A DNA stretch of 64,000 nucleotides from a virus. Lineage: Duplodnaviria; Caudoviricetes. The stretch covers positions 64,001-128,000 of the IMG/VR virus record IMGVR_UViG_3300028591_000098. One strand, 5' to 3'. Position numbers and translations under genes: made by a program. This document shows positions 21,701-43,144 of the stretch, one piece after another; positions within the stretch are counted from its first letter, which is position 1, and each line of letters opens with the position of its first letter. The notes below the pieces were generated by a model. The model was not told the DNA's origin, did not search any database, and saw only the letters and a list, made by a program, of their open reading frames with translations.

Positions 21701-21892
21701 TTAATTATGTATATTACTTATTGGTTCTTTCTTTATATGAAGTCTAAATGCTGGGAATTTACTTTCTTGTTCATCCTTTTCTCTTTTAGCTTCTTCTTCT
21801 GTATTATAATAATTATACATTGTATTATCATCATAATATAATACATAAATATCTTGTGAATTTTCTAAAATAAAATTTTTAATATTTTTCAT
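21701..21892 (-). CDS. putative internal virion protein with leader MKNIKNFILE
   Basis: Shared N-terminal leader. Confidence 0.65.
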   Translation of the reverse strand: MKNIKNFILENSQDIYVLYYDDNTMYNYYNTEEEAKREKDEQESKFPAFRLHIKKEPISNIHN

Positions 21893-21913
21893 AAATTAAA
21901 TTATATTATATAT

Positions 21914-22303
21914 TTATTCTTTTACGACAATTACCATTATATTATTAGATTCTATCATATTAAGTATGTCATCATAACTATATGTATGTTCATCAGAATT
22001 AAAGAAATCATTATCTATATTATACACCTTAACTCTAAATTCTTCATTAGTATGACATACCCAAGTTGATTTATTTTTTAATTCTGCTAAAAATATATGT
22101 TTATCTTTCCAATATTCATCATTATGTTTTATTTTATCAATAAGTTTATCAAATGATTCCTTATCATATGCATATAATGTTGGTTCTATTTCTTCATTGG
22201 TTTGTTCACATCTTATTTTTATAGAATCAATTGTTCTACCTTCTAATAATGAAATTTTGGAAATTTCATAATTTTCCAATATAAAGTCTTTTAAATTTTT
22301 CAT
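21914..22303 (-). CDS. putative internal virion protein with leader MKNLKDFILE
   Basis: Shared N-terminal leader. Confidence 0.65.
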   Translation of the reverse strand: MKNLKDFILENYEISKISLLEGRTIDSIKIRCEQTNEEIEPTLYAYDKESFDKLIDKIKHNDEYWKDKHIFLAELKNKSTWVCHTNEEFRVKVYNIDNDFFNSDEHTYSYDDILNMIESNNIMVIVVKE

Positions 22304-22304
22304 A

Positions 22305-22769
22305 TTATTTATACCATTTAGGTGGATTTTTTTGTAGTGGACTTGCAGAAAACATATTTGTCATATCTTCAACATTTGATACATTCCATTTTGATAAATC
22401 TGAATTAAATTTCATACATTTATAAAACATATATTTCATATTTGTAACATTAGATACATCCCAATTAGACAAATTCGAATTGAAATTTTTACAGTTATAA
22501 AATATCCATTCCATAGTAGTAACATTAGATACATCCCATTTAGATATATCTATATTATGAGGATCTAAGTATTCAAATAAATCAGACATATCAGTTATTT
22601 CAGATGTATCAATATCATTTAGATCTGCATTGTTACCACGCTCATCTAATAATTGTTTTAATAATTTTTGAAGTTCATCTTTATCTTTTGGATAATAATT
22701 ATATCCACTAACTTTAGTTTTACTACCTATTTGAAGTTTTTCTTGTATTATATCTTGTAAGTTCTTCAT
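22305..22769 (-). CDS. DUF285 repeat protein with leader, paralog 1
   Basis: 25-aa W(D/N)VSNV..M..MF..C..FNSDLS repeats. Confidence 0.85.
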   Translation of the reverse strand: MKNLQDIIQEKLQIGSKTKVSGYNYYPKDKDELQKLLKQLLDERGNNADLNDIDTSEITDMSDLFEYLDPHNIDISKWDVSNVTTMEWIFYNCKNFNSNLSNWDVSNVTNMKYMFYKCMKFNSDLSKWNVSNVEDMTNMFSASPLQKNPPKWYK

Positions 22770-22774
22770 ATTAT

Positions 22775-23317
22775 TTATTCTTTATACCATTTAGGTGGAT
22801 TTTTTTCTATTCCACTTTTCCAAAACATTTTAAACATTGATTTAACTTTAGATACATTCCAGTTATTTAAATTTGCTTTGAAATTTTTACAATTATTAAA
22901 CATTTGTTCCATATTTGTAACGTTAGAAACATTCCAATTACTTATATCAGAATTAAAATTATAACAGTCGAAAAACATAGAATCCATATTTATATTATTT
23001 GACATATCCCAATTACTTAAATCAGAATTAAAATGCTTACAATCATAAAACATATTATAAGTATAAATAACGTTAGACATATCCCACTCCGATATATCTA
23101 TATTATGTGGATCTAATCCATCAAATAAATATGACATATCTGTTATTTTAGATGTATCAATATCATTTAGATCTGCATCTTTACCACGTTCTTTTAATAA
23201 TTTTTTTAATATTTCCAATAAATCATCAGTTGTATTGGGGTGATACTTATATTTAGTAATCTTAGATTTAGATCCTATTTGAAGTTTTTCTTGTATTATA
23301 TTTTTTAAATTTTTCAT
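22775..23317 (-). CDS. DUF285 repeat protein with leader, paralog 2
   Basis: Same architecture. Confidence 0.85.
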   Translation of the reverse strand: MKNLKNIIQEKLQIGSKSKITKYKYHPNTTDDLLEILKKLLKERGKDADLNDIDTSKITDMSYLFDGLDPHNIDISEWDMSNVIYTYNMFYDCKHFNSDLSNWDMSNNINMDSMFFDCYNFNSDISNWNVSNVTNMEQMFNNCKNFKANLNNWNVSKVKSMFKMFWKSGIEKNPPKWYKE

Positions 23318-23352
23318 TAGTTTGCAATATTGTACGATTTATTACATATATG

Positions 23353-24408
23353 TTATAATAAGTTATCATCATCACCGCGAGAATCATCATCTTCATCATC
23401 TTCATCATCAGAATTATTCTTATTATCATCTTCTTCTTTTTTATCTTTCTTATCATTTTCTTTATCTTCTTCATCATCTTCTTTCTTATCTTCTCTTTCT
23501 TTACGTTCTCCTGTTAATGAGAATATAGCTGGATCATCAGTTTTATCGGCTTCTAATAAATCAAGAATTGATTCAATAAGTTTCTTTACATCATCTGGTA
23601 ATTCTATTAAAGAATCTTCTGCAAAATCTTGTACCCATATAGCCTTTTCACCTTTACCAAAAATATGCATAAGTGAACGTGTGTTTTCAATAGATATTTC
23701 TTTAAATTCTCCTTCACCTTCTGCTTTACCAAATGGCATCTTCTTAGTATATTTCCAACGAAGTGCTATAGCTTCTTCACCACTCTTAAACTTAATTGCA
23801 GAGAAATAATATTCTCTTGGTAAAGATATTTCATTAGATACTAAAAGTTCAAGTTGTTTAGCAGCTTTAACTTTATCAGGACCATCAAGAAGTTCTAAAA
23901 CCTTTTCAACAGTTTCTGACTTCATTTCTTCTTCACCATCATCTTCTTTAATAATTTGAGTAAATTCAAATTCATTTAAAAATGATTCATTACATTCTCC
24001 TGGGCATGGACATATTGATTTAACCATTGTTGCAGGATTTTTAGCAGTAGCCACATCTTCAGGAGAAAAATATACAACCCAATACATACCAAGATTAATT
24101 TTAGTCATTTTAGTAAGACCTTGTTGCATAATATATCCAGCTAATGTAGTAAATCTATCTAATGGATTAAATAATACATTATTAATAGATTCTTCATTAA
24201 CAAATTTTGTACTATGTAATTTAATAGATACGTTATCTTCACCAACCGCAGCAACTACACCTAATCTTAAACAAAATAAATTATTAATATTTGTCAATAT
24301 ATTTTCTATAGGTGTATAATGATTAGTTACACCTGTTGTTGTCAATGCATTTCCAGGTTGTACATCGGCAGTTTTAGCTGATTCAACTATTTGTGTAAAT
24401 TTTCTCAT
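23353..24408 (-). CDS. acidic putative head/core protein with leader MRKFTQIVE
   Basis: Leader; D/E/K-rich C-terminal tail. Confidence 0.6.
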   Translation of the reverse strand: MRKFTQIVESAKTADVQPGNALTTTGVTNHYTPIENILTNINNLFCLRLGVVAAVGEDNVSIKLHSTKFVNEESINNVLFNPLDRFTTLAGYIMQQGLTKMTKINLGMYWVVYFSPEDVATAKNPATMVKSICPCPGECNESFLNEFEFTQIIKEDDGEEEMKSETVEKVLELLDGPDKVKAAKQLELLVSNEISLPREYYFSAIKFKSGEEAIALRWKYTKKMPFGKAEGEGEFKEISIENTRSLMHIFGKGEKAIWVQDFAEDSLIELPDDVKKLIESILDLLEADKTDDPAIFSLTGERKEREDKKEDDEEDKENDKKDKKEEDDNKNNSDDEDDEDDDSRGDDDNLL

Positions 24409-24436
24409 TTGTTATTATTATATTTATTTATTCATA

Positions 24437-25144
24437 TTATTCTTTATTAATATACCATTTTGGAGGATTTTTTTCTATTTCACTTTTCCAAAACATTTTT
24501 CTCATTTTTACATTTTTAGATACGTCCCATTTTGATAAATCTGAATTAAAATTTTCGCATCTATAGAACATATATGTCATATCGTTAACATTAGATACAT
24601 CCCAATTACTTAAATCTGAATTAAATTTTTCACACTGTGAAAACATACTAACAGTATTTGTAACTTTAGATACATCCCATTTACTTAAATCAGATTCAAA
24701 GTTTTCACAATCATAAAACATATCTTTCATATTTGTAACTTTAGATATATCCCAGTTAGACAAATCTGAATTAAAATTATGACAACCTTCAAATACACCT
24801 TTCATACTTCTAACATTAGACACATCCCATTTTGATAAATCCGAATTAAAGTTTGTACAATTCCAAAACATAAATTCCATGTTTTCTACATTAGACACAT
24901 TCCATTGCGATATATCTATATTATGTGGATCTAATCCATTAAATAAATCTGATAAATCTGACATATCAGTTATTTTAGATGTATCAATATCATTTAGATC
25001 AGCATCTTTACCACGTTCATCTAATAATTGTTCTATTAATTTTCCAAGTTCATCTTTATCTTTAGGATGATATTTATATGAACTAACTTTTGTTTTACTG
25101 CCAATTTGAAGTTTTTCTTGTATTATATCTTGTAAGTTTTTCAT
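24437..25144 (-). CDS. DUF285 repeat protein with leader, paralog 3
   Basis: Same architecture. Confidence 0.85.
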   Translation of the reverse strand: MKNLQDIIQEKLQIGSKTKVSSYKYHPKDKDELGKLIEQLLDERGKDADLNDIDTSKITDMSDLSDLFNGLDPHNIDISQWNVSNVENMEFMFWNCTNFNSDLSKWDVSNVRSMKGVFEGCHNFNSDLSNWDISKVTNMKDMFYDCENFESDLSKWDVSKVTNTVSMFSQCEKFNSDLSNWDVSNVNDMTYMFYRCENFNSDLSKWDVSKNVKMRKMFWKSEIEKNPPKWYINKE

Positions 25145-25145
25145 A

Positions 25146-25691
25146 TCAATTTTCCTTATACCATTTTGGTGGATTTTTTTCTAAAGGACACCCATTAAAT
25201 GCTCCTCTCATGTCTTTAATTTTAGATACATCCCAATTTGATAAATTTGACTTAAAATCATAACAACCATAAAATATATTTAATATATGTTCAACATTAG
25301 ATACATCCCATTTAGATAAATCAGAATTAAAATTATAACATTTATAAAACATCCATCCCATATTATTTACATTTGATACATTCCAATTTGATAAATCAGA
25401 ATTGAAATCATAACATTCGGCAAACATACCCCACATATCTTTAACATTAGATACATCCCATTTAGATATATCTATATTATGAGGATCTAAATTATCAAAT
25501 AACTCTGTCATATCAGTTATTTTAGATGTATCTATATCATTTAAATTAGCATCCTTACCACGTTCATCCAATAATTGGTTTAATAATTTTCTAAGTTCAT
25601 CTTTATCTTTAGGGTAATATTTATATGAACTAACTTTTGTTTTACTGCCAATTTGAAGTTTTTCTTGTATTATATATTGTAAGTTTTTCAT
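25146..25691 (-). CDS. DUF285 repeat protein with leader, paralog 4
   Basis: Same architecture. Confidence 0.85.
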   Translation of the reverse strand: MKNLQYIIQEKLQIGSKTKVSSYKYYPKDKDELRKLLNQLLDERGKDANLNDIDTSKITDMTELFDNLDPHNIDISKWDVSNVKDMWGMFAECYDFNSDLSNWNVSNVNNMGWMFYKCYNFNSDLSKWDVSNVEHILNIFYGCYDFKSNLSNWDVSKIKDMRGAFNGCPLEKNPPKWYKEN

Positions 25692-25724
25692 TATTATAAA
25701 TGTTTATGTATAATTAATAATAAA

Positions 25725-26390
25725 TTAAAATTGTCTCCAAAAGTGAAATATCTGTTGGAGAGTTGCTTTAGAAAAGTGTCCTTCAGTAAAACATGCGGTC
25801 GGTACTAATCTAGTAGGTAATACATATGATGCACCTCTTAATACTGGTATATACATTTTTATTCCAAAACCAATTTTTGCATTTACTTTCGCTAAATGTT
25901 TTATTTCAGAATAAGAAATCCACGTGTTTGGTTTACCTGTTACTTCATTAAAATTCTTATCAAAATAAGGTTTAAAATGTTTATATACCTCATTAATTAT
26001 TTTAGTTCTGGTAAATGGTGGATAATAATGTAAATTTATTCCAACCTCTCTAATATTACCATCATCTGTTCTTGTTATACCACAAAATAACGTTAATGGA
26101 GAAGCATCATAATACGCCAGTTCTTCTTTATATTTAGGTTGAGAATAATGAAATAAAACAATTTGACCAGGTAATAAATATTTCTTTGTAGGTTTTGTTA
26201 ATGATAATAATTCTTTATATGCTAATTTAGAACGAATAGATGTTGGACGTTTAGCTAATGGATGTTCATTAATTGACTCCAACATCTTAAAATATTTTAT
26301 TTCATCTTCATCATAAATCTTTCTATCTAAATCTTTAAGACTAAATATGTGACCTAATGTTGTTTTTTCTGGCTTATGTATTATTGGCAT
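25725..26390 (-). CDS. DNA end protector protein (T4 gp2-like)
   Basis: PG....F.Y..PKYKEEL.YYD..PL and GINLHY.PP motifs. Confidence 0.8.
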   Translation of the reverse strand: MPIIHKPEKTTLGHIFSLKDLDRKIYDEDEIKYFKMLESINEHPLAKRPTSIRSKLAYKELLSLTKPTKKYLLPGQIVLFHYSQPKYKEELAYYDASPLTLFCGITRTDDGNIREVGINLHYYPPFTRTKIINEVYKHFKPYFDKNFNEVTGKPNTWISYSEIKHLAKVNAKIGFGIKMYIPVLRGASYVLPTRLVPTACFTEGHFSKATLQQIFHFWRQF

Positions 26391-26404
26391 ATCAAAATAA
26401 AAAA

Positions 26405-26424
26405 TTATTTTTATTTAAAAATAA
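26405..26424. promoter_or_regulatory. divergent pair of candidate late promoter motifs
   Basis: TTATTTTTA on + (26405-26413) and on - (26416-26424) in a 43-bp divergent gap. Confidence 0.5.
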
Positions 26425-26433
26425 CTATATAAT

Positions 26434-27573
26434 ATGAATATACTTATTGTAGGCGCTGGATTATTTGGTGTTACTATAGCTAGACTATTAACTAATAAAG
26501 GTCATGTATGTACAATAATAGATCAACGAAATCATATTGGTGGTAATTGTTATGATGAACCATATTCAATTGATAATCATACAATGACTGTTCACAAATA
26601 TGGACCTCATGTATTTCATACAAGTAATCAACAAGTTTGGACTTTTGTTAATAAATATGCTAAATTTAATAATTTTAGAACTAATATATTAGCAAAAGAT
26701 GATAATAATAAGTTATATCATCTTCCATTTAATATGAATACATTTTACGATATATTTGGTATATTTAATATAGAAAAAGTTAAGAATATAATACAACAAG
26801 AAATTAAAGACGCAAATATAACCAAAATAACGAATCTTGAAGAAAAAGCAATTTCTATGGTAGGTACAACTGTTTATAATATATTAATAAAAAACTATAC
26901 AGAAAAACAATGGAATTGTAAATGTACTGAACTTTCTCCAGATATAATATCTAGATTACCTTTACGTTTTTATTTTGATAATAATTATTTTAATGATATT
27001 TATCAAGGTGTTCCTATAGGCGGATATACTAAATTAATAGAAAATATTATAAATGGAGTTGATAATGAAAAACCAATTAAATATATTTTAAATACTAAAT
27101 TTGATTTATCAATATATGACAACTATGATAAGATAATTTATTGTGGATCTATAGATGAATTATTAAATTACAAATTTGGATATTTAGAATATAGAAGTTT
27201 AAAATTTGAAAATACTGAATATATATTTGATTTTATAAATTCAAATGGTTGTGCTCATATAAATTTAGTAGGAACACAAAGAGGAACTAGAGAAATTGAA
27301 CATGTATATTATACTCCTGAAAGTTTAGAATATTTTATTGGTCAAAAATTAATTAAAACATTGGAAGTACCTGATGACTGGGATTTAACTAAAGAAAGAT
27401 TTTATAGTATTAATAACAATAAAAATAATGATTTATATGAAAAATATGTAAATTATTTAGAAAAAACATATCCAAATATTATATTGGGAGGTAGACTCGG
27501 TTTATATAAATATTTAGATATGGATGATGTTATATTGTTAGCTTTTGATAAATCAAATGTTATTAACATGTGA
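26434..27573 (+). CDS. glf: UDP-galactopyranose mutase
   Basis: IVGAGLFG, HIGGNCYD, HKYGPHVFHT, YTEKQW, YFNDIYQGVP, LEYRSL, GRLGLYKYLDMD. Confidence 0.92.
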   Translation: MNILIVGAGLFGVTIARLLTNKGHVCTIIDQRNHIGGNCYDEPYSIDNHTMTVHKYGPHVFHTSNQQVWTFVNKYAKFNNFRTNILAKDDNNKLYHLPFNMNTFYDIFGIFNIEKVKNIIQQEIKDANITKITNLEEKAISMVGTTVYNILIKNYTEKQWNCKCTELSPDIISRLPLRFYFDNNYFNDIYQGVPIGGYTKLIENIINGVDNEKPIKYILNTKFDLSIYDNYDKIIYCGSIDELLNYKFGYLEYRSLKFENTEYIFDFINSNGCAHINLVGTQRGTREIEHVYYTPESLEYFIGQKLIKTLEVPDDWDLTKERFYSINNNKNNDLYEKYVNYLEKTYPNIILGGRLGLYKYLDMDDVILLAFDKSNVINM

Positions 27574-28599
27574 ATTAATTAATTTATCATATACCAATGT
27601 TTTTTCAAAAGCATTAATAAATATTTTATTTTCTTTGAATATATTAAATGTAGATAATAATTTGGTAAAAAAATTAACATTACAATTAATAAATAAATTA
27701 ACTAACCATTCAATTGTATATCCAAAAAATCTCCAATTATTACAATATGTATTTAATCCATAATTTGTTTCAGGATTAAATATTTCTTTATAATATTTAA
27801 AATGTTGAAAATTTTGATAAAATAATTTATATTTATCTACAATTGAATGTTCGATATTATATATTATTTTATCAAAATTTTTTCTAAAATATTCAATAAG
27901 ATAAAAATTTACAAAATCCACACATTCATTATAATCGAATAAATTGTAGTGATATTTGTTTTCTAAATAATTTATATAACCATTTATAAATTTCATCATA
28001 TTTATAAACATTATTTTATTACATGTAAACATTGATCTTGCAATAAAATAATGTTCATATTTTTTTAATTCAAAACGTTTACATTTATTTATTATTTTAT
28101 ATTGGTCTATAATTGTTTGTTGTTTTAAATATTCTATTATATCTTCACAAATATATAAAGGATAACCCATGCTCATAAAATATTCGAATATATACCAATA
28201 ATTATTATATTCATATTCTATCTTATTTAATTCTTCATTTGATATGTGATTTAATTGTAATCCATCATGATGGAAATTTCTTTCATAATATTGTATTTCA
28301 TTACGATTAATTTTATATTCATTAATTAAATAAATATTAGGAATACGTCTATAATGGCCTAATGACACAGTATCATATTTTTCATATAATTTATTTTCAT
28401 AAATATAATATAATGTACAATACTCATTATATATATGATTTAAATTGTTTATATTTTTTAAATCAATTTGTTTATTTGTATTAAAAAAAATATAGTTTGA
28501 TGTTGCATCATCAAACAAATATTTTATTACATCTTCATAAACTTTATTATCTTCTTCACTTAAATGTGTTTGTAAAAAAATTCCATGATTTAAATCCAT
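27553..28599 (-). CDS. DUF4422-like putative glycosyltransferase
   Basis: NINNLN..YNEYC.LYYIY.N, GHYRR and R..GY..E motifs. Confidence 0.65.
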   Translation of the reverse strand: MDLNHGIFLQTHLSEEDNKVYEDVIKYLFDDATSNYIFFNTNKQIDLKNINNLNHIYNEYCTLYYIYENKLYEKYDTVSLGHYRRIPNIYLINEYKINRNEIQYYERNFHHDGLQLNHISNEELNKIEYEYNNYWYIFEYFMSMGYPLYICEDIIEYLKQQTIIDQYKIINKCKRFELKKYEHYFIARSMFTCNKIMFINMMKFINGYINYLENKYHYNLFDYNECVDFVNFYLIEYFRKNFDKIIYNIEHSIVDKYKLFYQNFQHFKYYKEIFNPETNYGLNTYCNNWRFFGYTIEWLVNLFINCNVNFFTKLLSTFNIFKENKIFINAFEKTLVYDKLINSHVNNI

Positions 28600-28601
28600 T
28601 T

Positions 28602-29051
28602 CTAATCATAATATTTTTGAATATATTGAAATACATCAGGAATACATTTAGTTTGCTTTTCTTTAATAGTTTCTTCATTAAACCATTTATATCTTGAATG
28701 TTCTCTCGATATTTTTACTTCTGGTTTTGTTTCTAAATTAACTATGAAATATTGTGTGTCTGAACCATTATCATGTACTTCTTTTCCAAAAGACTTCATA
28801 GAATGTTCTTCATTAAATGATAGTGTTATTCCAGTTTCTTCTTTAATTTCTCTAATTAAAGCATCTTTAGGCGATTTATCTTTTTCATCAATAGCACCAC
28901 CAACAAACCCCCATTTTCCACCAAATAGTTTAACATATCCAGCTCTTTGTAATAAAAGAATTTCATCAGTATCTTTACAAACTAAAATACCATCTACATA
29001 ATGTTTTATTTCTTCTTTGTTTTCCTTTATATATTTTAAAATAGATTTCAT
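28602..29051 (-). CDS. NUDIX hydrolase with leader MKSILKYIKE
   Basis: GG.IDE......ALIREIKEETG Nudix box; ILLLQR; EH..Y.W. Confidence 0.9.
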   Translation of the reverse strand: MKSILKYIKENKEEIKHYVDGILVCKDTDEILLLQRAGYVKLFGGKWGFVGGAIDEKDKSPKDALIREIKEETGITLSFNEEHSMKSFGKEVHDNGSDTQYFIVNLETKPEVKISREHSRYKWFNEETIKEKQTKCIPDVFQYIQKYYD

Positions 29052-29052
29052 A

Positions 29053-29610
29053 TTATATAAATTTTATTTTATATTTATACCATTTAGGTGGATTTTTTTG
29101 TAAAGGACAATTATAAAACATATTATTTATATTTTCAACATTAGATACATCCCATTTACTTAAATCTGAATTAAATTTCTCACACCCAGAAAACATATAA
29201 TACATATCTGTAACTTTGGATACGTCCCATTCATTTAAATCTGAATTGAAATTATAACAACATTCAAACATACATCTCATATTTGTAACATTAGATACAT
29301 CCCATTTTGATAAATCTGAATTAAAATCATAACAATTATAAAACATACATTTCATATTTTCAACATTCGATACGTCCCATTGTGATATATTTATATTATG
29401 AGGATTTAAATTATTAAATAAATATGCCATTTCTGTTATATTAGATGTATCAATATCATTTAGATTTGCATTTTTACCACGTTCTTTTAATAATTGTTTT
29501 AATAATACTCTAAGTTCATCCCAATTTTTCGGGTGATATTTATATCCACCAACTTTAGTTTTACTACCAATTTTAAGACCTTCTTTTATATAATTACTTA
29601 AAAACTTCAT
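29053..29610 (-). CDS. DUF285 repeat protein with leader, paralog 5
   Basis: Same architecture. Confidence 0.85.
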   Translation of the reverse strand: MKFLSNYIKEGLKIGSKTKVGGYKYHPKNWDELRVLLKQLLKERGKNANLNDIDTSNITEMAYLFNNLNPHNINISQWDVSNVENMKCMFYNCYDFNSDLSKWDVSNVTNMRCMFECCYNFNSDLNEWDVSKVTDMYYMFSGCEKFNSDLSKWDVSNVENINNMFYNCPLQKNPPKWYKYKIKFI

Positions 29611-30082
29611 TGTATTCTTCTTTTAAATATTGTTTTATTTGATTAAATCTTTTTAATAAATATTTATCACTTACTGATAATCGAGATGTTGGTAATTTAG
29701 ATATTTTTTTTGTTTTTTCTTCATAATATTTATAATAAAAAATTAAAAACTCTTTTGTTTCTTTATCAAAATATTCTTTAAGTTTATCATATTTTTCTGG
29801 AAGATTTAATCTAATAAAATCTATAACATCTTTATTATCAAATTCCTTTTTATTTTTTCTATTTTCTCTTAATAATTCAGAAATTTGAAGTTCTATTTCA
29901 TGTATTTTATTAGATTCTATTCCATATTTTCTTGCATAGTGTTGTTTTTCCTTTTTTTCTATTGCATAAGAAACATTATTATAATCATCCCTCATTTCTT
30001 CTTCAGAATAATTAAAATTATTTACCTTTGTATTACTTCCTATTTTAATACCTTCCTTTATATAATTAACTATGTATTTCAT
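29594..30082 (-). CDS. helical protein carrying the extended leader MKYIVNYIKEGIKIGSNTKV
   Basis: First 20 aa resemble 29053..29610; the rest is unrelated. Confidence 0.7.
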   Translation of the reverse strand: MKYIVNYIKEGIKIGSNTKVNNFNYSEEEMRDDYNNVSYAIEKKEKQHYARKYGIESNKIHEIELQISELLRENRKNKKEFDNKDVIDFIRLNLPEKYDKLKEYFDKETKEFLIFYYKYYEEKTKKISKLPTSRLSVSDKYLLKRFNQIKQYLKEEYNEVFK

Positions 30083-30091
30083 AAAAATAAA

Positions 30092-30712
30092 TTAAAAATT
30101 TTTATACCAATTTAGTTCATTACCTTCTAGTGGTGAATCCATAAACATATGATTTATATTACATAATTTACTAACTTTCCATTTTGATAAATCATTATTA
30201 AATATAATACTTCCTCTAAACATATACTCCATATTTTTAACATTAGATACATCCCAATTAGACAAATCTGAATTAAATTTCTCACACCCGTAAAACATAC
30301 AATACATATCTGTAACGTTAGATACATCCCAATTAGACAAATCAGAATTAAAATTATAACAACATTTAAATATACTTTTCATATCTGTAACTTTAGATAC
30401 ATTCCATTTACTTAAATCTGAATTAAAATCAAAACAATTATAAAACATATATTTCATATTTTTTACATTAGATACATTCCATTTAGATATATCTATATTA
30501 TGAGGATTCAAATTATTAAATAGAAGATCCATATCAGTTATTTTAGATGTATCAATATCGTTTAAATCTGCATCTTTACCACGTTCCTTTAATAATTGTT
30601 TTAATATTTTTCTAAGTTCATCGTTATCTTTTGGATAATAATTATATACTCTAACTTTTGTTTTACCGCCAATTTGAAGTTTTTCTTGTATTATATCTTG
30701 TAAATTTTTCAT
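30092..30712 (-). CDS. DUF285 repeat protein with leader, paralog 6
   Basis: Same architecture. Confidence 0.85.
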   Translation of the reverse strand: MKNLQDIIQEKLQIGGKTKVRVYNYYPKDNDELRKILKQLLKERGKDADLNDIDTSKITDMDLLFNNLNPHNIDISKWNVSNVKNMKYMFYNCFDFNSDLSKWNVSKVTDMKSIFKCCYNFNSDLSNWDVSNVTDMYCMFYGCEKFNSDLSNWDVSNVKNMEYMFRGSIIFNNDLSKWKVSKLCNINHMFMDSPLEGNELNWYKNF

Positions 30713-30714
30713 AT

Positions 30715-31410
30715 TTAATTTCCCTTATACCATTTTGGTGGATTTTTTTCTAATGGAGTATCATAAAACATATAGTCCATATCTCTAACTTTAGAAACGT
30801 TCCATTTATTAAGATCAGAATTAAAAATATGACAATATTCAAATACACCTTTCATATTTGTTACGTTAGATACATTCCATTTACTTAAATCTGAATTAAA
30901 GTTTTCACAATCTCTAAACATCCATGACATATCTGTAACTTTAGAAACGTTCCATTCATTAAGATCTGAATTAAAATTATGACAACTTTCAAATGTGCCT
31001 TTCATATTTGTTACGTTAGATACATCCCATGCACTTAAATCTGAATTAAATTGTTTACATTGAAAAAACGTACCAAACATATTTTTAGTATTAGACACAT
31101 CCCATTTTGATAAATCACAATTAAAATGTATACAATTAAAAAACATACCTTCCATTGTATTAACGTTAGACACATCCCATTGTGATATATCAATATTATG
31201 AGGATCTAAATATGCAAATAATCTTGACATATCAGTTATTTCAGACGTATCAATATCATTTAGATCTGCATCTTTACCACGTTCATTTAATAATTGTTTT
31301 AATAATTTTTTAAGTTTATCTTTATCTTTTGGATGATATTTATATGAACTAACTTTTGTTTTACCACCAATTTGAAGTTTCTCCAGTATTATGTCTTGTA
31401 AGTTTTTCAT
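30715..31410 (-). CDS. DUF285 repeat protein with leader, paralog 7
   Basis: Same architecture. Confidence 0.85.
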   Translation of the reverse strand: MKNLQDIILEKLQIGGKTKVSSYKYHPKDKDKLKKLLKQLLNERGKDADLNDIDTSEITDMSRLFAYLDPHNIDISQWDVSNVNTMEGMFFNCIHFNCDLSKWDVSNTKNMFGTFFQCKQFNSDLSAWDVSNVTNMKGTFESCHNFNSDLNEWNVSKVTDMSWMFRDCENFNSDLSKWNVSNVTNMKGVFEYCHIFNSDLNKWNVSKVRDMDYMFYDTPLEKNPPKWYKGN

Positions 31411-31413
31411 ATT

Positions 31414-31794
31414 TTACCAACCACATTTATCTGAATTAGCATAATCCCATTCAATTCTATAATCTTCTTCTTCCTTAGTTAAATTTAATTCACCTTCGTT
31501 TTCTACACCTTTAATTACACATGCAGTAACAAATTTAGTTAAACGTTTTCTATCTTCTCCAGTTAAATGTCCATTAACTTTACGAAGAATTATTTGACAT
31601 AATTTTGATATTACTGATGAATTTTCTAATTTTTCAATTTCAAATTCACCTTTTTTATATTTTTTAACTAAATTATCTATTAATGGTTTAAAATAATGTT
31701 TATATATATCTGAATTATTATCCAATTCCATACAAGCATCAAATATTATTTTATTTGCATTAGATTCCGTAATATATTCTTTAATGTTCTTCAT
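31414..31794 (-). CDS. putative internal virion protein with leader MKNIKEYITE
   Basis: Shared leader. Confidence 0.65.
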   Translation of the reverse strand: MKNIKEYITESNANKIIFDACMELDNNSDIYKHYFKPLIDNLVKKYKKGEFEIEKLENSSVISKLCQIILRKVNGHLTGEDRKRLTKFVTACVIKGVENEGELNLTKEEEDYRIEWDYANSDKCGW

Positions 31795-31807
31795 ATTTTT
31801 ATTAAAT

Positions 31808-32107
31808 TTATTTTTTTATTCTAACATATAAATTAATACCACCATCGGCATCATATATTTCTCCAATTTTTAATGCTTTAACAGCCTTTTCTCCAGTATC
31901 ATCACCTTCAAAATCTTTAGTCCATTGTTTTAAATCATCTTCAGTATAAGGTGTAATTATTTGACTATCAGTATTAATATATAACCATTTTACATCTTTA
32001 TTTTCAAGGCCAGATAATTTAATACCGGAATGACTTGGATCACTAACACTTGAAAGATATTCCCAAGCATTGGAACTTTCATTTATATAATTTTTAATGT
32101 TTTTCAT
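31808..32107 (-). CDS. putative internal virion protein with leader MKNIKNYINE
   Basis: Shared leader. Confidence 0.65.
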   Translation of the reverse strand: MKNIKNYINESSNAWEYLSSVSDPSHSGIKLSGLENKDVKWLYINTDSQIITPYTEDDLKQWTKDFEGDDTGEKAVKALKIGEIYDADGGINLYVRIKK

Positions 32108-32112
32108 AATTA

Positions 32113-32931
32113 TTAAATATTATTATTTTTTATTTTATTTACTTTAATTTGTTCTCTTACTTTATCAATATTAAATGTAAAAGTAATTACAAATGCATAA
32201 AGGTCATCAATATTATCAATAGAAACATCTAATACTTGCGTCCATTTAACATCAGCTCTTGATTCTAATTTACCAAGTATCTTAGCTATTTCTTCCAAAG
32301 ATGTTTTAATATTACCTTCTTTACCATTTGAACCTGTATGCTTAACTGCATAAACTTGTACTTCACCATTTATTTTTGTTTCAACCACAGGACATTTAAA
32401 ATCAAATGTACTTACAATATCATTAACCGCTTTATAGATCTTCTTATTTTGATAAGTTGCAACATCATAAAGTTGTTCTACAGATTCAGGGTCTGCTTCT
32501 TTTGTTGGCATATCACCATTTTGTCGTGCTACAACAGAAAATCCATAATTTTTATTACCAAAATAAAGAGGTTCTATATTTCCTTTTTTAATATCTGGTA
32601 TATGTAAAAATCTGGCAAATTGATTATGAATAGCCATAAGATCATTTACTTCTGGTGAACAATCTAATATGCTAATTATCTCTTGTTCTGAATTGAATTT
32701 ACCAAATTGATTAACTGGTGTTACTGGTATACCTCCAGTTAAAGTCGCATCACAAGTTTTATCACAAACTGTATTGGCACATGGGCAACATTCATCACCA
32801 CAACAACATCCACAATCACAACATTCATTTATTTCATAATTTTCAAGATTTTTAATCTTATCTTTAAGTGATTCATCTATACCTTCTAAAGAGATATAAC
32901 GATTATTTACGTAAGCTTCTAACTTTTTCAT
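32113..32931 (-). CDS. hypothetical protein with a Cys-rich segment
   Basis: CCDCGCCCGDECCPC...C...C segment. Confidence 0.7.
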   Translation of the reverse strand: MKKLEAYVNNRYISLEGIDESLKDKIKNLENYEINECCDCGCCCGDECCPCANTVCDKTCDATLTGGIPVTPVNQFGKFNSEQEIISILDCSPEVNDLMAIHNQFARFLHIPDIKKGNIEPLYFGNKNYGFSVVARQNGDMPTKEADPESVEQLYDVATYQNKKIYKAVNDIVSTFDFKCPVVETKINGEVQVYAVKHTGSNGKEGNIKTSLEEIAKILGKLESRADVKWTQVLDVSIDNIDDLYAFVITFTFNIDKVREQIKVNKIKNNNI

Positions 32932-32934
32932 AAC

Positions 32935-33210
32935 TTAAAATATACTTGGTATTTTTGATAAATCTGCGTTTGAAAAGTCAAGATGCCATTTGTCGATTGG
33001 ATCCTTTTTATGTTTTTCACAATATTCTAAAATTTTTTCAAATCCAACATTCATGATTTCCCAACCATCTTCATCAATTTCGGTTACATCAGATTGGTCT
33101 TTACCATTACCTTTCCAAATAAGAATTTCACGAACTCCATTTTCTTTATAATCCCAAAGACACCATTCACCTCCTGGTTTTGATTCTGTAATTTGTTTTA
33201 ATGTTTTCAT
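32935..33210 (-). CDS. putative internal virion protein with leader MKTLKQITE
   Basis: Shared leader. Confidence 0.65.
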   Translation of the reverse strand: MKTLKQITESKPGGEWCLWDYKENGVREILIWKGNGKDQSDVTEIDEDGWEIMNVGFEKILEYCEKHKKDPIDKWHLDFSNADLSKIPSIF

Positions 33211-33239
33211 TTTATATAATATAAATATTTTTTTATTTA

Positions 33240-33443
33240 TTAATATTCAACATGTCCACCTTCTGCATGAATAAATGCATCACCTTCTTGATTATTAAGC
33301 CAATCTTCAAATTCTTTAATATCATCTGAATTCACATAAATATCAACAGAAATCGGTAATTCGCCATTATTTTTACAATCTGCTAATGATACTCTATACT
33401 TACTTTGTTTATTTTCATTAATTATTTCACTAATTGTTTTCAT
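33240..33443 (-). CDS. putative internal virion protein with leader MKTISEIINE
   Basis: Shared leader. Confidence 0.65.
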   Translation of the reverse strand: MKTISEIINENKQSKYRVSLADCKNNGELPISVDIYVNSDDIKEFEDWLNNQEGDAFIHAEGGHVEY

Positions 33444-33447
33444 ATGT

Positions 33448-33939
33448 TTATTTATAAATATTTTTTATTTCTTTAATAATATCTTTTGTTTTTGTACTAT
33501 TAACTAATGGTACTAAATATTTTTCACAAGTTAAACGAACATTATCATATCTCCAAAATTTATCTGTACAAAAAACCAATAATTTACCAGATTCGGCATA
33601 TAAACCTAATTCAAGTAAACTTATTGGTGATTGTGATTTATCTGAAAATACCATAATTATTAAATCGGATTCATCTAAATGATCTTGTTCCCATTTAATT
33701 TGTTCCTCCATTAAATCTTTTGAAGGATTTTTAACCCAGTTTTTACGTCTTGGATTATATACTTCAAAATATGTATTACATTCAATTTCTATTTGTTCTA
33801 ATTCATTAATTAACTCTTGTTGCCAATCTTTAGAATTACCATTATCTATTGTTCCTGCTAAAAATATTTTACTTACCTTTGGATTTCCTAAAGATATTTG
33901 TAAAGCAGTTAATTCTTCGTCTGGATATATTATCTTCAT
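33448..33939 (-). CDS. nucleoside 2-deoxyribosyltransferase-like protein
   Basis: IFLAGTID.G...WQ, YNPRR, QIKWE, SPISLLELG, FWR..NV motifs. Confidence 0.8.
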   Translation of the reverse strand: MKIIYPDEELTALQISLGNPKVSKIFLAGTIDNGNSKDWQQELINELEQIEIECNTYFEVYNPRRKNWVKNPSKDLMEEQIKWEQDHLDESDLIIMVFSDKSQSPISLLELGLYAESGKLLVFCTDKFWRYDNVRLTCEKYLVPLVNSTKTKDIIKEIKNIYK

Positions 33940-33941
33940 AA

Positions 33942-34562
33942 TTATGCTTTATATAATAAATTTGATTTAAATACTTCTTTTCTATTAACATCTAATATTC
34001 TTGTAATTTGAATTGGTGCATCTAAATCTAATGTCAATTCATATTCATCTGGATCAATAATATTAGCGGCTATTGTTTCTCCCCAATTCACATCTTTAGG
34101 ATCAACTAATGCACAAATAGTTATATTGTTTCTCGAACTAGTTACGGCACCATGAGAATCCCCCATACCTTCCATAAATGTCCAATAAGTACCAATATTA
34201 CCTTTATAATCAGAAAATCCTGAGTTTAAAGAAATAACCCTTTCAATTTTTATTAAACCTCTTTCTAATTCTAATGTTAATTGATCGTCAACTATATCTT
34301 TAATATAATCTATAAAATTATCTTTATCATCTTCAACACAATCTAATTCATGTTCTTCACAATAATCTTCACCATATACAGTATTATTGATATTTAAAGA
34401 AAATTTAGAATTATCAAAAGGATCACATTCATTAAAATAATCATAGTAAGATTTATGATTAGTTTTTAATTCACCTTCTTTAGAATTATCTTTAATAAAT
34501 TCAATAAACTTTTCTAAATGTTCATTTGATGACTCTAAAATATAATCAGTAATTGATTTCAT
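33942..34562 (-). CDS. putative internal virion protein with leader MKSITDYILE
   Basis: Shared leader; acidic. Confidence 0.65.
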   Translation of the reverse strand: MKSITDYILESSNEHLEKFIEFIKDNSKEGELKTNHKSYYDYFNECDPFDNSKFSLNINNTVYGEDYCEEHELDCVEDDKDNFIDYIKDIVDDQLTLELERGLIKIERVISLNSGFSDYKGNIGTYWTFMEGMGDSHGAVTSSRNNITICALVDPKDVNWGETIAANIIDPDEYELTLDLDAPIQITRILDVNRKEVFKSNLLYKA

Positions 34563-35262: not shown

Positions 35263-35727
35263 TTATTTAAAAAATTTTTCAGTAACTATTATAAATTTTG
35301 CGTTATGTTCATGTGCAAATTTCTCAGCATATTTCCATTTATCGGTATTTCTAACCCATTGTTCTTTTAACCAAGCAGAATCTTGCATTGCAGGTTTGAC
35401 TGTTTGATTTTCTGGTTTTACTTCAACAATAATATGAGTACCTTGTTCAGTTTCTAATACATAATCTGGATAATAATTACATTCTTTATTATCTAATCTA
35501 CTAAAATATTTTATTGCAATAGGTTCACTTGCCCATTTTTTTATTTTTGGATTATTTTCACAAAATTGTATAAATTGATATTCTAAACCTGAACGATAAA
35601 TAACTGGTTCATTTTTACATGAAGTAAAATATTTAGTTAAAAATCTTTGAGGAACTGTACCTTGATGATACTTAGAATCTCTTTTAGGTTTTAAATTTTT
35701 TATATTATTTGAAAATTTCTTTACCAT
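35263..35727 (-). CDS. head completion nuclease (T4 gp4-like, TnsA-type)
   Basis: YRSGLE..F...C..N..I..WASEP..I.Y, YYPD, VEVKP, N..KW..A, F.I.TE. Confidence 0.88.
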   Translation of the reverse strand: MVKKFSNNIKNLKPKRDSKYHQGTVPQRFLTKYFTSCKNEPVIYRSGLEYQFIQFCENNPKIKKWASEPIAIKYFSRLDNKECNYYPDYVLETEQGTHIIVEVKPENQTVKPAMQDSAWLKEQWVRNTDKWKYAEKFAHEHNAKFIIVTEKFFK

Positions 35728-42826: not shown

Positions 42827-43144
42827 TTAATCAGCTTTTACTAAATTATCTGAATCATCTGGTTTTTTAGGATTACCGCGTTGATCTAAAGCTTTTTGAC
42901 ATGTACCGTCATCTAACCATTCATATTCAAAAAGATCATCTTTAATTTTTACTTGACCATGAATAATATTTGGTACCTCTTTATAATCAACTTTGGTAAC
43001 TATAACTTGACGACCATCTTTAGTCATTACTGGTTTTTCATCTTGAATCCATTGATCATCTATAGGATCGCCTTTTTGTTCAAAAGCTTTTTTTAGATTT
43101 ACTTTAAATAGTTCTTCTTTAAGTAATGTTACTATATCTTTCAT
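42827..43144 (-). CDS. putative internal virion protein with leader MKDIVTLLKE
   Basis: Leader; own TTATTTTTA motif at 43166-43174. Confidence 0.6.
   Translation of the reverse strand: MKDIVTLLKEELFKVNLKKAFEQKGDPIDDQWIQDEKPVMTKDGRQVIVTKVDYKEVPNIIHGQVKIKDDLFEYEWLDDGTCQKALDQRGNPKKPDDSDNLVKAD

What the first reader, a model, noticed from the sequence alone, without database searches (positions are those of the whole stretch)
21701..34562. Virion-cargo island: 18 genes share a T4-like capsid-targeting leader on diverse payloads
Seen: 17 proteins in this interval start with the same 9-10 aa pattern, M-K-x-(L/I)-x-x-(Y/F/I)-I-x-E. They are MKNIKNFILE (start 21892), MKNLKDFILE (22303), MKNLQDIIQE (22769, 25144, 30712), MKNLKNIIQE (23317), MRKFTQIVE (24408), MKNLQYIIQE (25691), MKSILKYIKE (29051), MKFLSNYIKE (29610), MKYIVNYIKE (30082), MKNLQDIILE (31410), MKNIKEYITE (31794), MKNIKNYINE (32107), MKTLKQITE (33210), MKTISEIINE (33443) and MKSITDYILE (34562). 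One more, MKDIVTLLKE, starts at 43144. After the Glu the payloads fall into about 12 unrelated types. The accessory operons at 1-4 kb, 14-17 kb and 43-50 kb lack this leader. The island is co-oriented with, and downstream of, gp4-like and gp2-like head genes. Established: T4 internal proteins IPII/IPIII carry the 10-aa capsid-targeting sequence MKTYQEFIAE, removed by prohead protease gp21 after (I/L)-x-E; IPI* is injected with the DNA and blocks the GmrSD restriction enzyme. Inference: this phage uses a portable packaging tag to load a large, modular set of proteins into its head for delivery at infection. T4 has only three IP proteins.
Basis: partly seen in the sequence, partly recalled or inferred. 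Interest (0 to 1): 0.92.

Follow-up and report, generated by a model that had tools for sequence, protein, structure and literature searches.

The report
T4-style capsid-loading tag, hugely expanded
About one gene in seven of this uncultivated giant phage begins with a ten-residue peptide that matches, position for position, the tag phage T4 uses to load proteins into its head and then clip off, so the phage probably packs an unusually large and varied protein cargo, though nothing has been shown at the bench.

Summary
All 18 listed genes start as described. Across the 163-kb contig, 35 of 240 ORFs carry the strict leader M-[KR]-x-[LI]-x-x-[YFI]-[IL]-x-E, against about 0.04 expected from composition. 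Four more carry variants. The payloads are 12 DUF285 paralogs plus about 24 unrelated proteins, including a NUDIX hydrolase and a ferritin-like protein. Codons and upstream DNA differ, so selection acts on the peptide.

The conserved positions (4, 7, 8, 10) are those that direct targeting and cleavage in the T4 capsid-targeting sequence. Two relatives carry the tag on 25 and 80 genes. Cultured Sphingomonas phage PAU has its own 9-residue version on 19 genes around its head genes, and its GenBank record calls two of them "internal capsid protein" and one "scaffolding".

Two caveats apply. This contig is about 64% complete and holds only a serine-less paralog of the prohead protease. Packaging, cleavage and injection are all untested.

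My verdict is a new variant of a known kind: a T4-type capsid-targeting tag on an unprecedented scale. The scan already reached the same reading on another window of this genome (e1-5779779).

The parts
21701..21892 (-). Leader-tagged orphan, 63 aa
   Evidence: Strict 10-residue leader. No Pfam family. The G001 ortholog keeps the leader.
21914..22303 (-). Leader-tagged orphan, 129 aa
   Evidence: Strict leader. No Pfam or PHROG family.
22305..22769 (-). Leader-tagged DUF285 repeat protein, 154 aa
   Evidence: Strict leader. Pfam DUF285 2e-34 from residue 46. Member of the 12-paralog cluster.
22775..23317 (-). Leader-tagged DUF285 paralog, 180 aa
   Evidence: Strict leader. In the DUF285 BLAST cluster.
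23353..24408 (-). Tagged 351-aa conserved protein with a 9-residue leader variant and an acidic tail
   Evidence: The leader ends I-V-E at residues 7-9. There are 89 cluster representatives elsewhere, with N-termini ending [IL]-x-E. In the AF2 model residues 1-22 are disordered and two folded domains follow. No fold match was found.
24437..25144 (-). Leader-tagged DUF285 paralog, 235 aa
   Evidence: Strict leader. In the DUF285 cluster.
25146..25691 (-). Leader-tagged DUF285 paralog, 181 aa
   Evidence: Strict leader. In the DUF285 cluster.
25725..26390 (-). Context gene without leader: gp2-like DNA end protector
   Evidence: phrog_429 'DNA end protector', 5.3e-18. Homologs occur in G001, G002, PTm1 and PAU.
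28602..29051 (-). Leader-tagged NUDIX hydrolase, 149 aa
   Evidence: Strict leader. The Pfam NUDIX domain (1.2e-17) begins at residue 19. Of the 120 metagenomic homologs listed (53-92% identity), 111 start M-K/R with Glu at position 10.
29053..29610 (-). Leader-tagged DUF285 paralog, 185 aa
   Evidence: Strict leader. In the DUF285 cluster.
29594..30082 (-). Leader-tagged non-DUF285 protein, 162 aa, sharing the second element after the Glu
   Evidence: Strict leader followed by the same short G-I-K-I-G-S-type element as the DUF285 set. The payload is a singleton in G000. The G001 ortholog is tagged.
30092..30712 (-). Leader-tagged DUF285 paralog, 206 aa
   Evidence: Strict leader. In the DUF285 cluster.
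30715..31410 (-). Leader-tagged DUF285 paralog, 231 aa
   Evidence: Strict leader. In the DUF285 cluster.
31414..31794 (-). Leader-tagged orphan, 126 aa
   Evidence: Strict leader. No Pfam or PHROG family.
31808..32107 (-). Leader-tagged orphan, 99 aa
   Evidence: Strict leader. The G002 ortholog (55% identity) is tagged and lies in the leader cluster next to that phage's protease gene.
32935..33210 (-). Tagged orphan, 91 aa, with a 9-residue leader variant
   Evidence: The N-terminus ends I-T-E at residues 7-9. No Pfam family.
33240..33443 (-). Leader-tagged orphan, 67 aa
   Evidence: Strict leader. No Pfam family.
33942..34562 (-). Leader-tagged orphan, 206 aa
   Evidence: Strict leader. No Pfam or PHROG family.
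35263..35727 (-). Context gene without leader: gp4-like head closure protein at the head of the co-oriented block
   Evidence: phrog_218 'head closure', 2.3e-33. Pfam TnsA-like N-terminal domain, 1.1e-17.
42827..43144 (-). Isolated leader-tagged orphan, 105 aa
   Evidence: Strict leader. No Pfam family. The G002 ortholog has a leader variant.

Best explanation
The shared N-terminus is a capsid-targeting sequence of the T4 type.

Proposed mechanism:
- The first ten residues, with a hydrophobic residue at 4 and an aromatic or aliphatic residue at 7, dock the newly made protein onto the scaffolding core of the assembling prohead.
- After the shell closes, the S77 (gp21-family) prohead protease cuts after Glu10 at an [I/L]-x-E site.
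- The mature protein stays inside the head with the DNA.

Because the tag is short and self-contained, it has been placed on many unrelated genes. These include a 12-member DUF285 repeat family, a NUDIX hydrolase, a ferritin-like protein and about twenty orphans. The result is a large, fast-changing packaged proteome.

Shown here:
- the tag, its statistics and its conservation at the peptide level;
- its register with the T4 CTS;
- its presence in relatives;
- matching sites in head proteins of relatives.

Inferred:
- docking to the core;
- cleavage;
- residence in the head;
- ejection into the host, which is the least certain step.
For: 1. Statistics. 35 of 240 ORFs carry the strict leader against 0.04-1.4 expected. 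Leader genes are clustered, with 22 adjacent pairs against 5 expected.

2. Modularity. After the Glu there are 28 BLAST-unrelated payload clusters with different Pfam domains: DUF285 and NUDIX, and ferritin-like. In relative G002 a HAD hydrolase is tagged.

3. Selection on the peptide. Codons vary at each conserved position and the upstream DNA is unrelated. Orthologs in G001 and G002, and 111 of 120 NUDIX homologs, keep positions 2, 4, 7, 8 and 10 while positions 3, 5, 6 and 9 drift.

4. Register with T4. ipII and ipIII of T4 start M-K-T-Y-Q-E-F-I-A-E. Mutagenesis mapped targeting to residues 4 and 7 and processing to residues 8 and 10 (PMC9026906). These are the positions conserved here.

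5. Head machinery of the right kind. The portal is Pfam Portal_T4, 3.8e-84. Relatives G002, PAU and PTm1 encode S77 proteases next to gp23-type capsid genes. The G002 protease aligns with T4 gp21 across the His and Ser motifs.

6. Matching sites in known protease substrates of the clade.
- A conserved L-T-E lies near residue 17 of the capsid protein.
- A conserved [VI]-x-E-S lies near residue 22 of the protease.
- Five W-I-[TN]-E-E repeats lie in the G002 scaffold part.
- The mature N-terminus of the PAU capsid protein, found by N-terminal sequencing, falls within one residue of L62-M63-E64 (PMC5646251).

7. PAU parallel. 19 of 291 PAU ORFs start with M-K-[TS]-[LI]-x-x-L-[YF]-E. Thirteen of them flank the portal, protease and capsid genes. 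The GenBank record names two 'internal capsid protein' and one 'scaffolding'.

8. Context. The window island is co-oriented with gp4-like and gp2-like head genes. In G002, leader genes run straight into the protease and capsid genes.

9. Accessibility. The leader region is disordered in the AF2 model of the 351-aa protein, and the NUDIX fold starts only at residue 19.
Against: - No experiment exists for this phage or its close relatives.
- The contig is about 64% complete. It has no gp23-type capsid gene.
- Its only S77 homolog is a 143-aa paralog in which the catalytic Ser position reads N-P. The enzyme that would cut the tag is therefore inferred from relatives.
- The cargo is mostly acidic, with a median pI of 5.2. 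T4 internal proteins are basic.
- 35-80 different cargo species per genome is far more than any T4-like phage is known to package.
- In other jumbo phages DUF285 repeats sit in very large tail-side proteins. An internal location for the small tagged ones is therefore not the default expectation.
- The basis of the PAU 'internal capsid protein' annotations is not stated in the record.
- The PAU capsid cut site fits L-M-E only to within one residue.
- [IL]-x-E is a short motif, and its enrichment in the G002 scaffold is modest (Poisson 0.006).
Confidence: 0.7

Rival explanations
1. The leader is a prohead-core docking and cleavage tag, but most tagged proteins are assembly components. They would be core, scaffold or inner-body parts, or DNA-organising or protective proteins that act inside the head. 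They would not be effectors delivered to the host. Many might be degraded or expelled at maturation.
For: - In PAU the protein annotated as scaffolding carries the leader.
- The 351-aa tagged protein is widely conserved and has a long acidic tail, like the G002 scaffold part and the portal tail.
- A ferritin-like cargo could act inside the capsid.
- The mostly acidic cargo resembles scaffolds more than the basic injected proteins of T4.
Against: - Enzymes such as NUDIX and HAD hydrolases have no obvious role in assembly.
- The tagged set turns over quickly between relatives and is rich in orphans and expanding paralog families. That is the pattern of arms-race genes, not of core assembly parts.
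- T4 precedent shows that CTS cargo remains in the head and is injected (PMC3012670).
Confidence: 0.15
2. The leader is a functional N-terminal tag for something other than the capsid. It might be an uncleaved docking helix for another phage complex. It might be a recognition site that lets a protease activate or time these proteins in the cytoplasm.
For: - No direct evidence ties these proteins to the head.
- The contig itself encodes a diverged, probably inactive S77 paralog that could act as a binding partner rather than an enzyme.
- The number of tagged genes is very large for a packaged set.
Against: - The exact match in length and in functionally mapped positions to the T4 CTS.
- The PAU annotations and the clustering of tagged genes round head genes.
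- The adjacency of tagged genes to the protease and capsid genes in G002.
- The co-orientation with gp4- and gp2-like genes.
Confidence: 0.1
3. There is no functional tag. The shared start would be a by-product of AT-rich codon usage and translation-initiation preferences, or of common descent of the genes (paralogy), or of recombination at a conserved DNA cassette.
For: - The genome is 25% G+C.
- Lys or Arg at position 2 is common even in untagged genes, 57 of 205.
- Twelve tagged genes are true paralogs.
Against: - Expectation from composition is 0.04 hits against 35 observed.
- Only 10 of 205 untagged ORFs have Glu at position 10.
- Equally AT-rich relatives PTm1 and PAU give 0 and 1 hits.
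- There is 1 hit in 77 genes of the neighbouring block.
- About 24 payloads are unrelated and carry different Pfam folds.
- Codons and upstream DNA are not conserved.
Confidence: 0.03

Closest known systems
Phage T4 capsid targeting sequence (CTS) of internal proteins IPII and IPIII, removed by prohead protease gp21 (Mullaney and Black 1996, as reviewed in PMC9026906 and PMC3012670)
   Same: - A ten-residue N-terminal leader beginning M-K and ending I-x-E.
- A hydrophobic or aromatic residue at positions 4 and 7.
- Attachment to unrelated mature proteins.
- A phage with a T4-type portal, and relatives with S77 protease and gp23-type capsid genes.
- Some leaders here share 6 of 10 residues with the T4 sequence.
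   Different: - Scale: T4 has 3 hits to the same expression (ipII, ipIII, gp61.1), against 35 here and 80 in a relative.
- Lineage: a distant PAU/PTm1-like jumbo phage group from metagenomes.
- Cargo: mostly acidic, and it includes enzymes and a repeat-protein family rather than small basic proteins.
- Cleavage and packaging are untested.
Sphingomonas phage PAU head gene region (GenBank JQ362498: gp142 and gp154 'internal capsid protein', gp152 'scaffolding', gp151 protease)
   Same: - A related terminase (about 30% identity) and a T4-type head module.
- 19 genes share a short N-terminal leader ending L-[YF]-E, often followed by a second K-L-N-E site that also occurs in the capsid propeptide.
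   Different: - The leader is 9 residues long with a different consensus.
- Tagged genes are fewer and concentrated round the head genes.
- No payload orthologs are shared with this phage.
- I found no paper that describes the PAU leader set.
Propeptide-bearing ejection and inner-body proteins of phiKZ-like giant phages (SPN3US, phiKZ, 201phi2-1; PMC5694885)
   Same: - Many head-internal proteins, including paralog families.
- Processing by a gp21-related protease after a Glu.
- Conserved N-termini among paralogs.
- A diverged second protease paralog in the genome.
   Different: - Their propeptides are mostly over 100 residues, with an [S/A]-x-E motif. Only 8 of about 50 SPN3US head proteins are processed.
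- Here the tag is a uniform 10-residue leader.
- No homology of payloads was seen.
Encapsulin cargo-loading peptides
   Same: A short portable peptide directs diverse cargo, notably ferritin-like proteins, into an HK97-fold shell. A ferritin-like protein is among the tagged cargo here.
   Different: Encapsulin targeting peptides are usually C-terminal and are not removed. There is no protease and no DNA. This is an analogy only, recalled from general knowledge and not tested.

Membership tests
T4-type CTS-bearing head-internal proteins | N-terminal leader of about 10 residues with hydrophobic residues at 4 and 7, I/L at 8 and Glu at 10 | tested here: met
   Position-specific counts in three genomes. 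T4 ipII and ipIII sequences were read from NC_000866. The roles of the positions come from PMC9026906.
T4-type CTS-bearing head-internal proteins | Leader is portable: attached to unrelated mature proteins | tested here: met
   28 payload clusters by BLAST and different Pfam folds.
T4-type CTS-bearing head-internal proteins | Genome encodes an active gp21-family (Peptidase_S77) prohead protease | tested here: inconclusive
   This contig, about 64% complete, has only a 143-aa S77 homolog (33.5 bits; phrog_207, 2.5e-20) with the catalytic Ser position replaced. Relatives G002, PAU and PTm1 have full proteases next to the capsid gene.
T4-type CTS-bearing head-internal proteins | T4-type head module (gp20 portal, gp23 capsid protein) | tested here: inconclusive
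   Portal_T4 at 3.8e-84. There is no Gp23 hit on this contig. gp23-type capsid genes are present in G002, PAU and PTm1 (PMC5646251).
T4-type CTS-bearing head-internal proteins | Leader removed by cleavage after the Glu during head maturation | not testable with these tools
   Only indirect evidence: conserved [IL]-x-E sites in the capsid and protease propeptides and in the scaffold of relatives, and a PAU capsid N-terminus within one residue of L-M-E.
T4-type CTS-bearing head-internal proteins | Protein physically present inside the mature head and injected | not testable with these tools
   The only hint is the PAU record, which names two leader-bearing proteins 'internal capsid protein'. The basis of that annotation is unknown.
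T4-type CTS-bearing head-internal proteins | Small basic proteins (as IPI-III) | tested here: not met
   Median pI of the mature parts is 5.2, and 71% are below pI 6. This is a property of the T4 examples rather than of the targeting mechanism.
Pfam DUF285 (PF03382) repeat proteins | Match to the family model above the curated cut-off | tested here: met
   118.3 bits against a cut-off of 25 for window 22305-22769. The six other window paralogs are joined to it by BLAST.
NUDIX hydrolases (PF00293) | Match to the family model above the curated cut-off | tested here: met
   64.6 bits against a cut-off of 21.1, residues 19-132 of window 28602-29051. Catalytic residues were not examined.

The most novel reading that the evidence does not exclude
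This phage lineage uses the tag to pre-load dozens of different proteins and inject them with the DNA as a ready-made host-takeover and counter-defence kit. The load would include nucleotide-cleaving enzymes and a rapidly diversifying family of DUF285 repeat binders. It would be by far the largest and most modular injected proteome known for a T4-type head. New cargo would be recruited simply by acquiring ten codons.
Probability: 0.35. Interest if true: 0.85.

Novelty: new variant of a known kind. Interest (0 to 1): 0.72.

Why it matters
If the tag works as in T4, the first ten codons alone would predict which genes of these uncultivated gut and rumen jumbo phages end up inside the virion. That would assign a location to dozens of orphan genes per genome at once.

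It would show that capsid loading can scale from three proteins to a sixth of the gene content. It would also point to a rich pool of candidate pre-packaged effectors, such as NUDIX, HAD, ferritin-like and repeat binders, that act before any phage gene is expressed.

Cultured phage PAU carries its own version of the tag. The idea is therefore directly testable by virion mass spectrometry. The tags could also serve as natural packaging handles for loading foreign proteins into large capsids.

Tried and rejected
- Chance and composition were rejected by composition, column-shuffle, internal-Met, reversed-pattern and cross-genome controls.
- Paralogy as the source of the shared start was rejected by payload clustering and Pfam.
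- A DNA cassette or promoter as the source was rejected, because upstream DNA and codons differ.
- The search for the capsid gene on this contig found none.
- The search for an active protease on this contig found only a Ser-less paralog.
- Testing leader swapping on orthologous cargo between lineages failed. No payload here has an ortholog in PAU or PTm1. PAU's only DUF285 protein is an untagged 1857-aa protein.
- Function of the 351-aa tagged protein was not resolved. The ESM Atlas gave nothing. The AF2 model is fair (pLDDT 74.5). Foldseek against PDB and BFVD gave nothing at E <= 0.001. VIA-align gave only generic alpha/beta matches with Z <= 6.5.
- Pfam and PHROGs found nothing for most orphan cargo.
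- The tag is not obviously expanded in a 635-kb huge phage, the best TerL hit, which has 1 pattern match. A Lak-A2 DUF285 protein has a non-canonical start.
- Two loose matches (genome 83690 and 112247) were dropped, because their orthologs lack the pattern.
- Literature searches found no paper linking a capsid-targeting tag to PAU, Lak, Jug or other huge phages. The library lacks most subscription journals.
- ORF calls are my own crude ones (ATG starts, at least 40 aa, TAG as stop), so the counts are approximate.

Full report
**What is there.** The window is bases 64001-128000 of a single 163,395-bp viral contig with 25% G+C. IMG/VR classes it as linear, and CheckV rates it about 64% complete. 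Fifteen genes between 21701 and 34562 match M-[KR]-x-[LIVFM]-x-x-[YFILV]-[ILV]-x-E. Two more (starts 24408 and 33210) carry a one-residue-shorter form ending I-x-E. One further strict match starts at 43144. The genes are tightly packed on one strand. Interspersed with them are a few untagged genes, including a gp2-like DNA end protector (25725-26390, phrog_429, 5e-18). The co-oriented block is headed by a gp4-like head closure gene (35263-35727, phrog_218, 2e-33).

**The tag is genome-wide.** My own ORF call on the whole contig (ATG starts, at least 40 aa) gives 240 ORFs, and 35 have the strict leader. Four more have close variants, one of them the small gene directly after the portal gene. 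The tagged genes lie in at least eight co-oriented clusters on both strands, so the "island" is only the largest cluster.

**Chance is excluded.**
- Proteome composition predicts 0.04 hits. Shuffling residues within each N-terminal column predicts 1.4, with a maximum of 7. Only one hit follows any of 954 internal methionines.
- A back-translated DNA pattern finds 14 sites in this contig and none for the reversed control.
- The same protein expression finds 0 of 311 ORFs in Tenacibaculum phage PTm1 and 1 of 291 in Sphingomonas phage PAU, both about 30% G+C.
- A slightly widened expression, which also allows Y or W at position 4 and W at position 7, finds 3 of 265 ORFs in T4.
- Within the contig, the long block of small genes next to the island has 1 tagged gene in 77, against 15 of 23 in the island (Fisher 3e-11).
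- Tagged genes are adjacent to each other 22 times, against 5 expected.

**The tag is a peptide module, not shared ancestry or shared DNA.** After the Glu the proteins fall into 28 BLAST-unrelated groups: one family of 12 DUF285 repeat proteins and singletons. Two of those singletons were later dropped as chance matches. Pfam identifies DUF285 and a NUDIX hydrolase in the window, and a ferritin-like protein elsewhere on the contig. A HAD hydrolase is tagged in a relative. Most of the rest are orphans. The DNA upstream of the start codons is unrelated, and each conserved position uses several codons.

Orthologs in two related contigs keep the pattern while the free positions change. Of the 120 metagenomic homologs listed for the NUDIX protein (53-92% identical), 111 start M-K/R with Glu at position 10. 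Among them, K2, a hydrophobic residue at 4, I8 and E10 are almost invariant, and positions 3, 5, 6 and 9 drift. The NUDIX fold begins only at residue 19. In an AlphaFold model of the 351-aa tagged protein the first 22 residues are disordered. The leader is therefore an exposed extension.

**What kind of phage this is.**
- The portal is a clear T4-type portal (Pfam Portal_T4, 3.8e-84).
- The large terminase is closest, at about 30% identity, to an uncultured 635-kb phage, to Sphingomonas phage PAU and to Tenacibaculum phages PTm1, PTm5 and pT24.
- It is thus a distant relative of T4 within the PAU/PTm1-like jumbo phages. Other notes of this scan call it Lak-related and assign it to gut or rumen Bacteroidales. 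I did not test that beyond seeing DUF285 matches to Lak phages.
- No gp23-type capsid gene is on the contig.
- A Peptidase_S77 (T4 gp21 family) match exists at genome 58644-59075 (33.5 bits; phrog_207 head maturation protease, 2.5e-20). It is only 143 aa long. In alignment with the proteases of PAU, PTm1 and a relative it keeps the His motif but has N-P where the catalytic Ser lies.
- I read it as an inactive paralog, like the diverged protease paralogs described in SPN3US-like phages (PMC5694885). The working protease and the capsid gene are presumably in the missing third of the genome.

**Relatives.** The portal retrieves 28 IMG/VR loci. G001 (236 kb, 78% portal identity) has 25 strict leaders among 325 ORFs. 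G002 (410 kb, 71% portal identity, first 400 kb read) has 80 among 512. In G002 a run of tagged genes leads directly into a protease-scaffold fusion gene, followed by a gp23-type capsid gene.

The known substrates of such proteases carry matching sites across the clade.
- A conserved L-T-E lies near residue 17 of the capsid protein. It aligns with K-L-N-E in PAU and I-T-E in PTm1.
- A conserved [VI]-x-E-S lies near residue 22 of the protease.
- Five W-I-[TN]-E-E repeats lie in the scaffold part of the G002 fusion, about four times the proteome density (Poisson 0.006).

**PAU gives the most tangible support.** This cultured phage has its own 9-residue leader, M-K-[TS]-[LI]-x-x-L-[YF]-E, on 19 of 291 ORFs. 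Thirteen of them lie around its portal, protease and capsid genes. Seven of the 19 have K-L-N-E directly after the leader Glu, and one has R-L-N-E. The K-L-N-E motif recurs at residues 20-23 of the capsid propeptide. The GenBank record names two of these genes "internal capsid protein" and one "scaffolding", but the record does not say on what basis. N-terminal sequencing put the mature PAU capsid protein at 520 of 585 residues (PMC5646251). That is within one residue of a cut after L62-M63-E64.

**Comparison with T4.** T4 ipII and ipIII, read from NC_000866 and annotated as internal virion proteins, both start M-K-T-Y-Q-E-F-I-A-E. According to the review PMC9026906, the first ten residues suffice for packaging. 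Residues 4 and 7 matter for targeting, residues 8 and 10 for processing, and Asp at 10 blocks cleavage but not targeting. The positions conserved here are 2, 4, 7, 8 and 10, in the same register, and individual leaders share up to six residues with the T4 sequence. The same review already suggests that the CTS may be an evolutionary device for loading varied proteins. T-even phages are known to carry diverse internal proteins that share only the CTS (PMC3012670). The mechanism class is therefore known. What is new is the scale (7-16% of ORFs against about 1% in T4), the distant lineage and the cargo types.

**Mechanism and confidence.**
- I put 0.7 on the reading that the leader docks proteins to the prohead core and is then cut after the Glu by the S77 protease, leaving the mature proteins in the head.
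- Delivery into the host is a further inference from T4, and I hold it with lower confidence.
- The main rival (0.15) accepts the tag but sees most cargo as assembly or intracapsid components. In its favour are the tagged PAU scaffold, the acidic nature of the cargo (median pI 5.2) and the acidic tail of the conserved 351-aa protein.
- A different, non-capsid role for the tag (0.1) cannot be excluded without experiments.
- Artefact or paralogy (0.03) is contradicted by the controls.

**Points that weigh against the favoured reading.**
- No active protease or capsid gene lies on this contig.
- The number of distinct cargo species is very large.
- In other jumbo phages DUF285 repeats belong to very large proteins beside baseplate genes (Aeromonas phage LAh10, PAU gp103).
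- [IL]-x-E is short, so its occurrences in head proteins are only suggestive.

**Novelty.** I found no paper that describes this leader set in PAU, Lak, Jug or other huge phages, within a library that lacks most subscription journals. The scan itself reached the same reading on another window of this genome (note e1-5779779). I treated that as a lead and tested the claim independently here. I class the finding as a new variant of a known kind.

Noticed in passing
L003:18644-19075 (genome 58644-59075, minus strand; outside the window): A 143-aa Peptidase_S77 / phrog_207 homolog keeps the His motif but has N-P at the catalytic Ser position. It is probably an inactive paralog of the prohead protease and sits among small genes far from any head gene.
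   Followed up: partly
window 32113-32931 (minus strand): An untagged 272-aa gene inside the island starts with a near-leader that has Asn instead of Glu at position 10. It also contains a very Cys-rich stretch with runs of C-C and C-x-C. In T4, a non-Glu residue at position 10 allows targeting without cleavage. No Pfam or PHROG family was found.
   Followed up: partly
window 22305-31410 and genome-wide; also G001 and G002: Many tagged proteins share a second short element right after the Glu, of the form [KG]-[LF]-x-[IL]-x-[SK]-x-[TN]. These are all the DUF285 paralogs and a few unrelated payloads. In locus L104 some DUF285 proteins begin directly with this element and have no leader. Its role is unknown.
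   Followed up: partly
L061:10947-11741 (-), L055:19330-19908 (-), L063:12831-13712 (-) (relative G002): Three DUF285 proteins carry two leaders in tandem: a full leader, a spacer of about 10 residues, then a second Y-I-T-E followed by the usual second element. It looks as if a tag was added upstream of an existing tag.
   Followed up: no
NC_000866 (phage T4) 18966-19130, minus strand, gene 61.1: The hypothetical 54-aa T4 protein gp61.1 starts with a CTS-like decapeptide that matches the same expression as ipII and ipIII. I do not know whether this has been noted before.
   Followed up: no
L001:8497-9000 (genome 8497-9000, plus strand): A ferritin-like / rubrerythrin-like protein (Pfam Ferritin, 6e-18) carries the leader. 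This recalls the ferritin-like cargo of encapsulins. The G001 ortholog is also tagged.
   Followed up: partly
window 56989-60111 and 60157-60840 (plus strand): A 1040-aa ORF ends in TAG and is followed by about 800 bases holding only a GTG-start ORF. Other notes report an amber-suppressor tRNA in this genome, so read-through is worth checking. TAG ends 20 of my 240 ORFs.
   Followed up: no
L122:2818-4203 (Prevotella phage Lak-A2): With TAG read as Gln, a Lak-A2 DUF285 protein is 461 aa long and starts with a non-canonical decapeptide that still ends L-L-E at residues 8-10, followed by an acidic run. It may be a divergent form of the tag.
   Followed up: no
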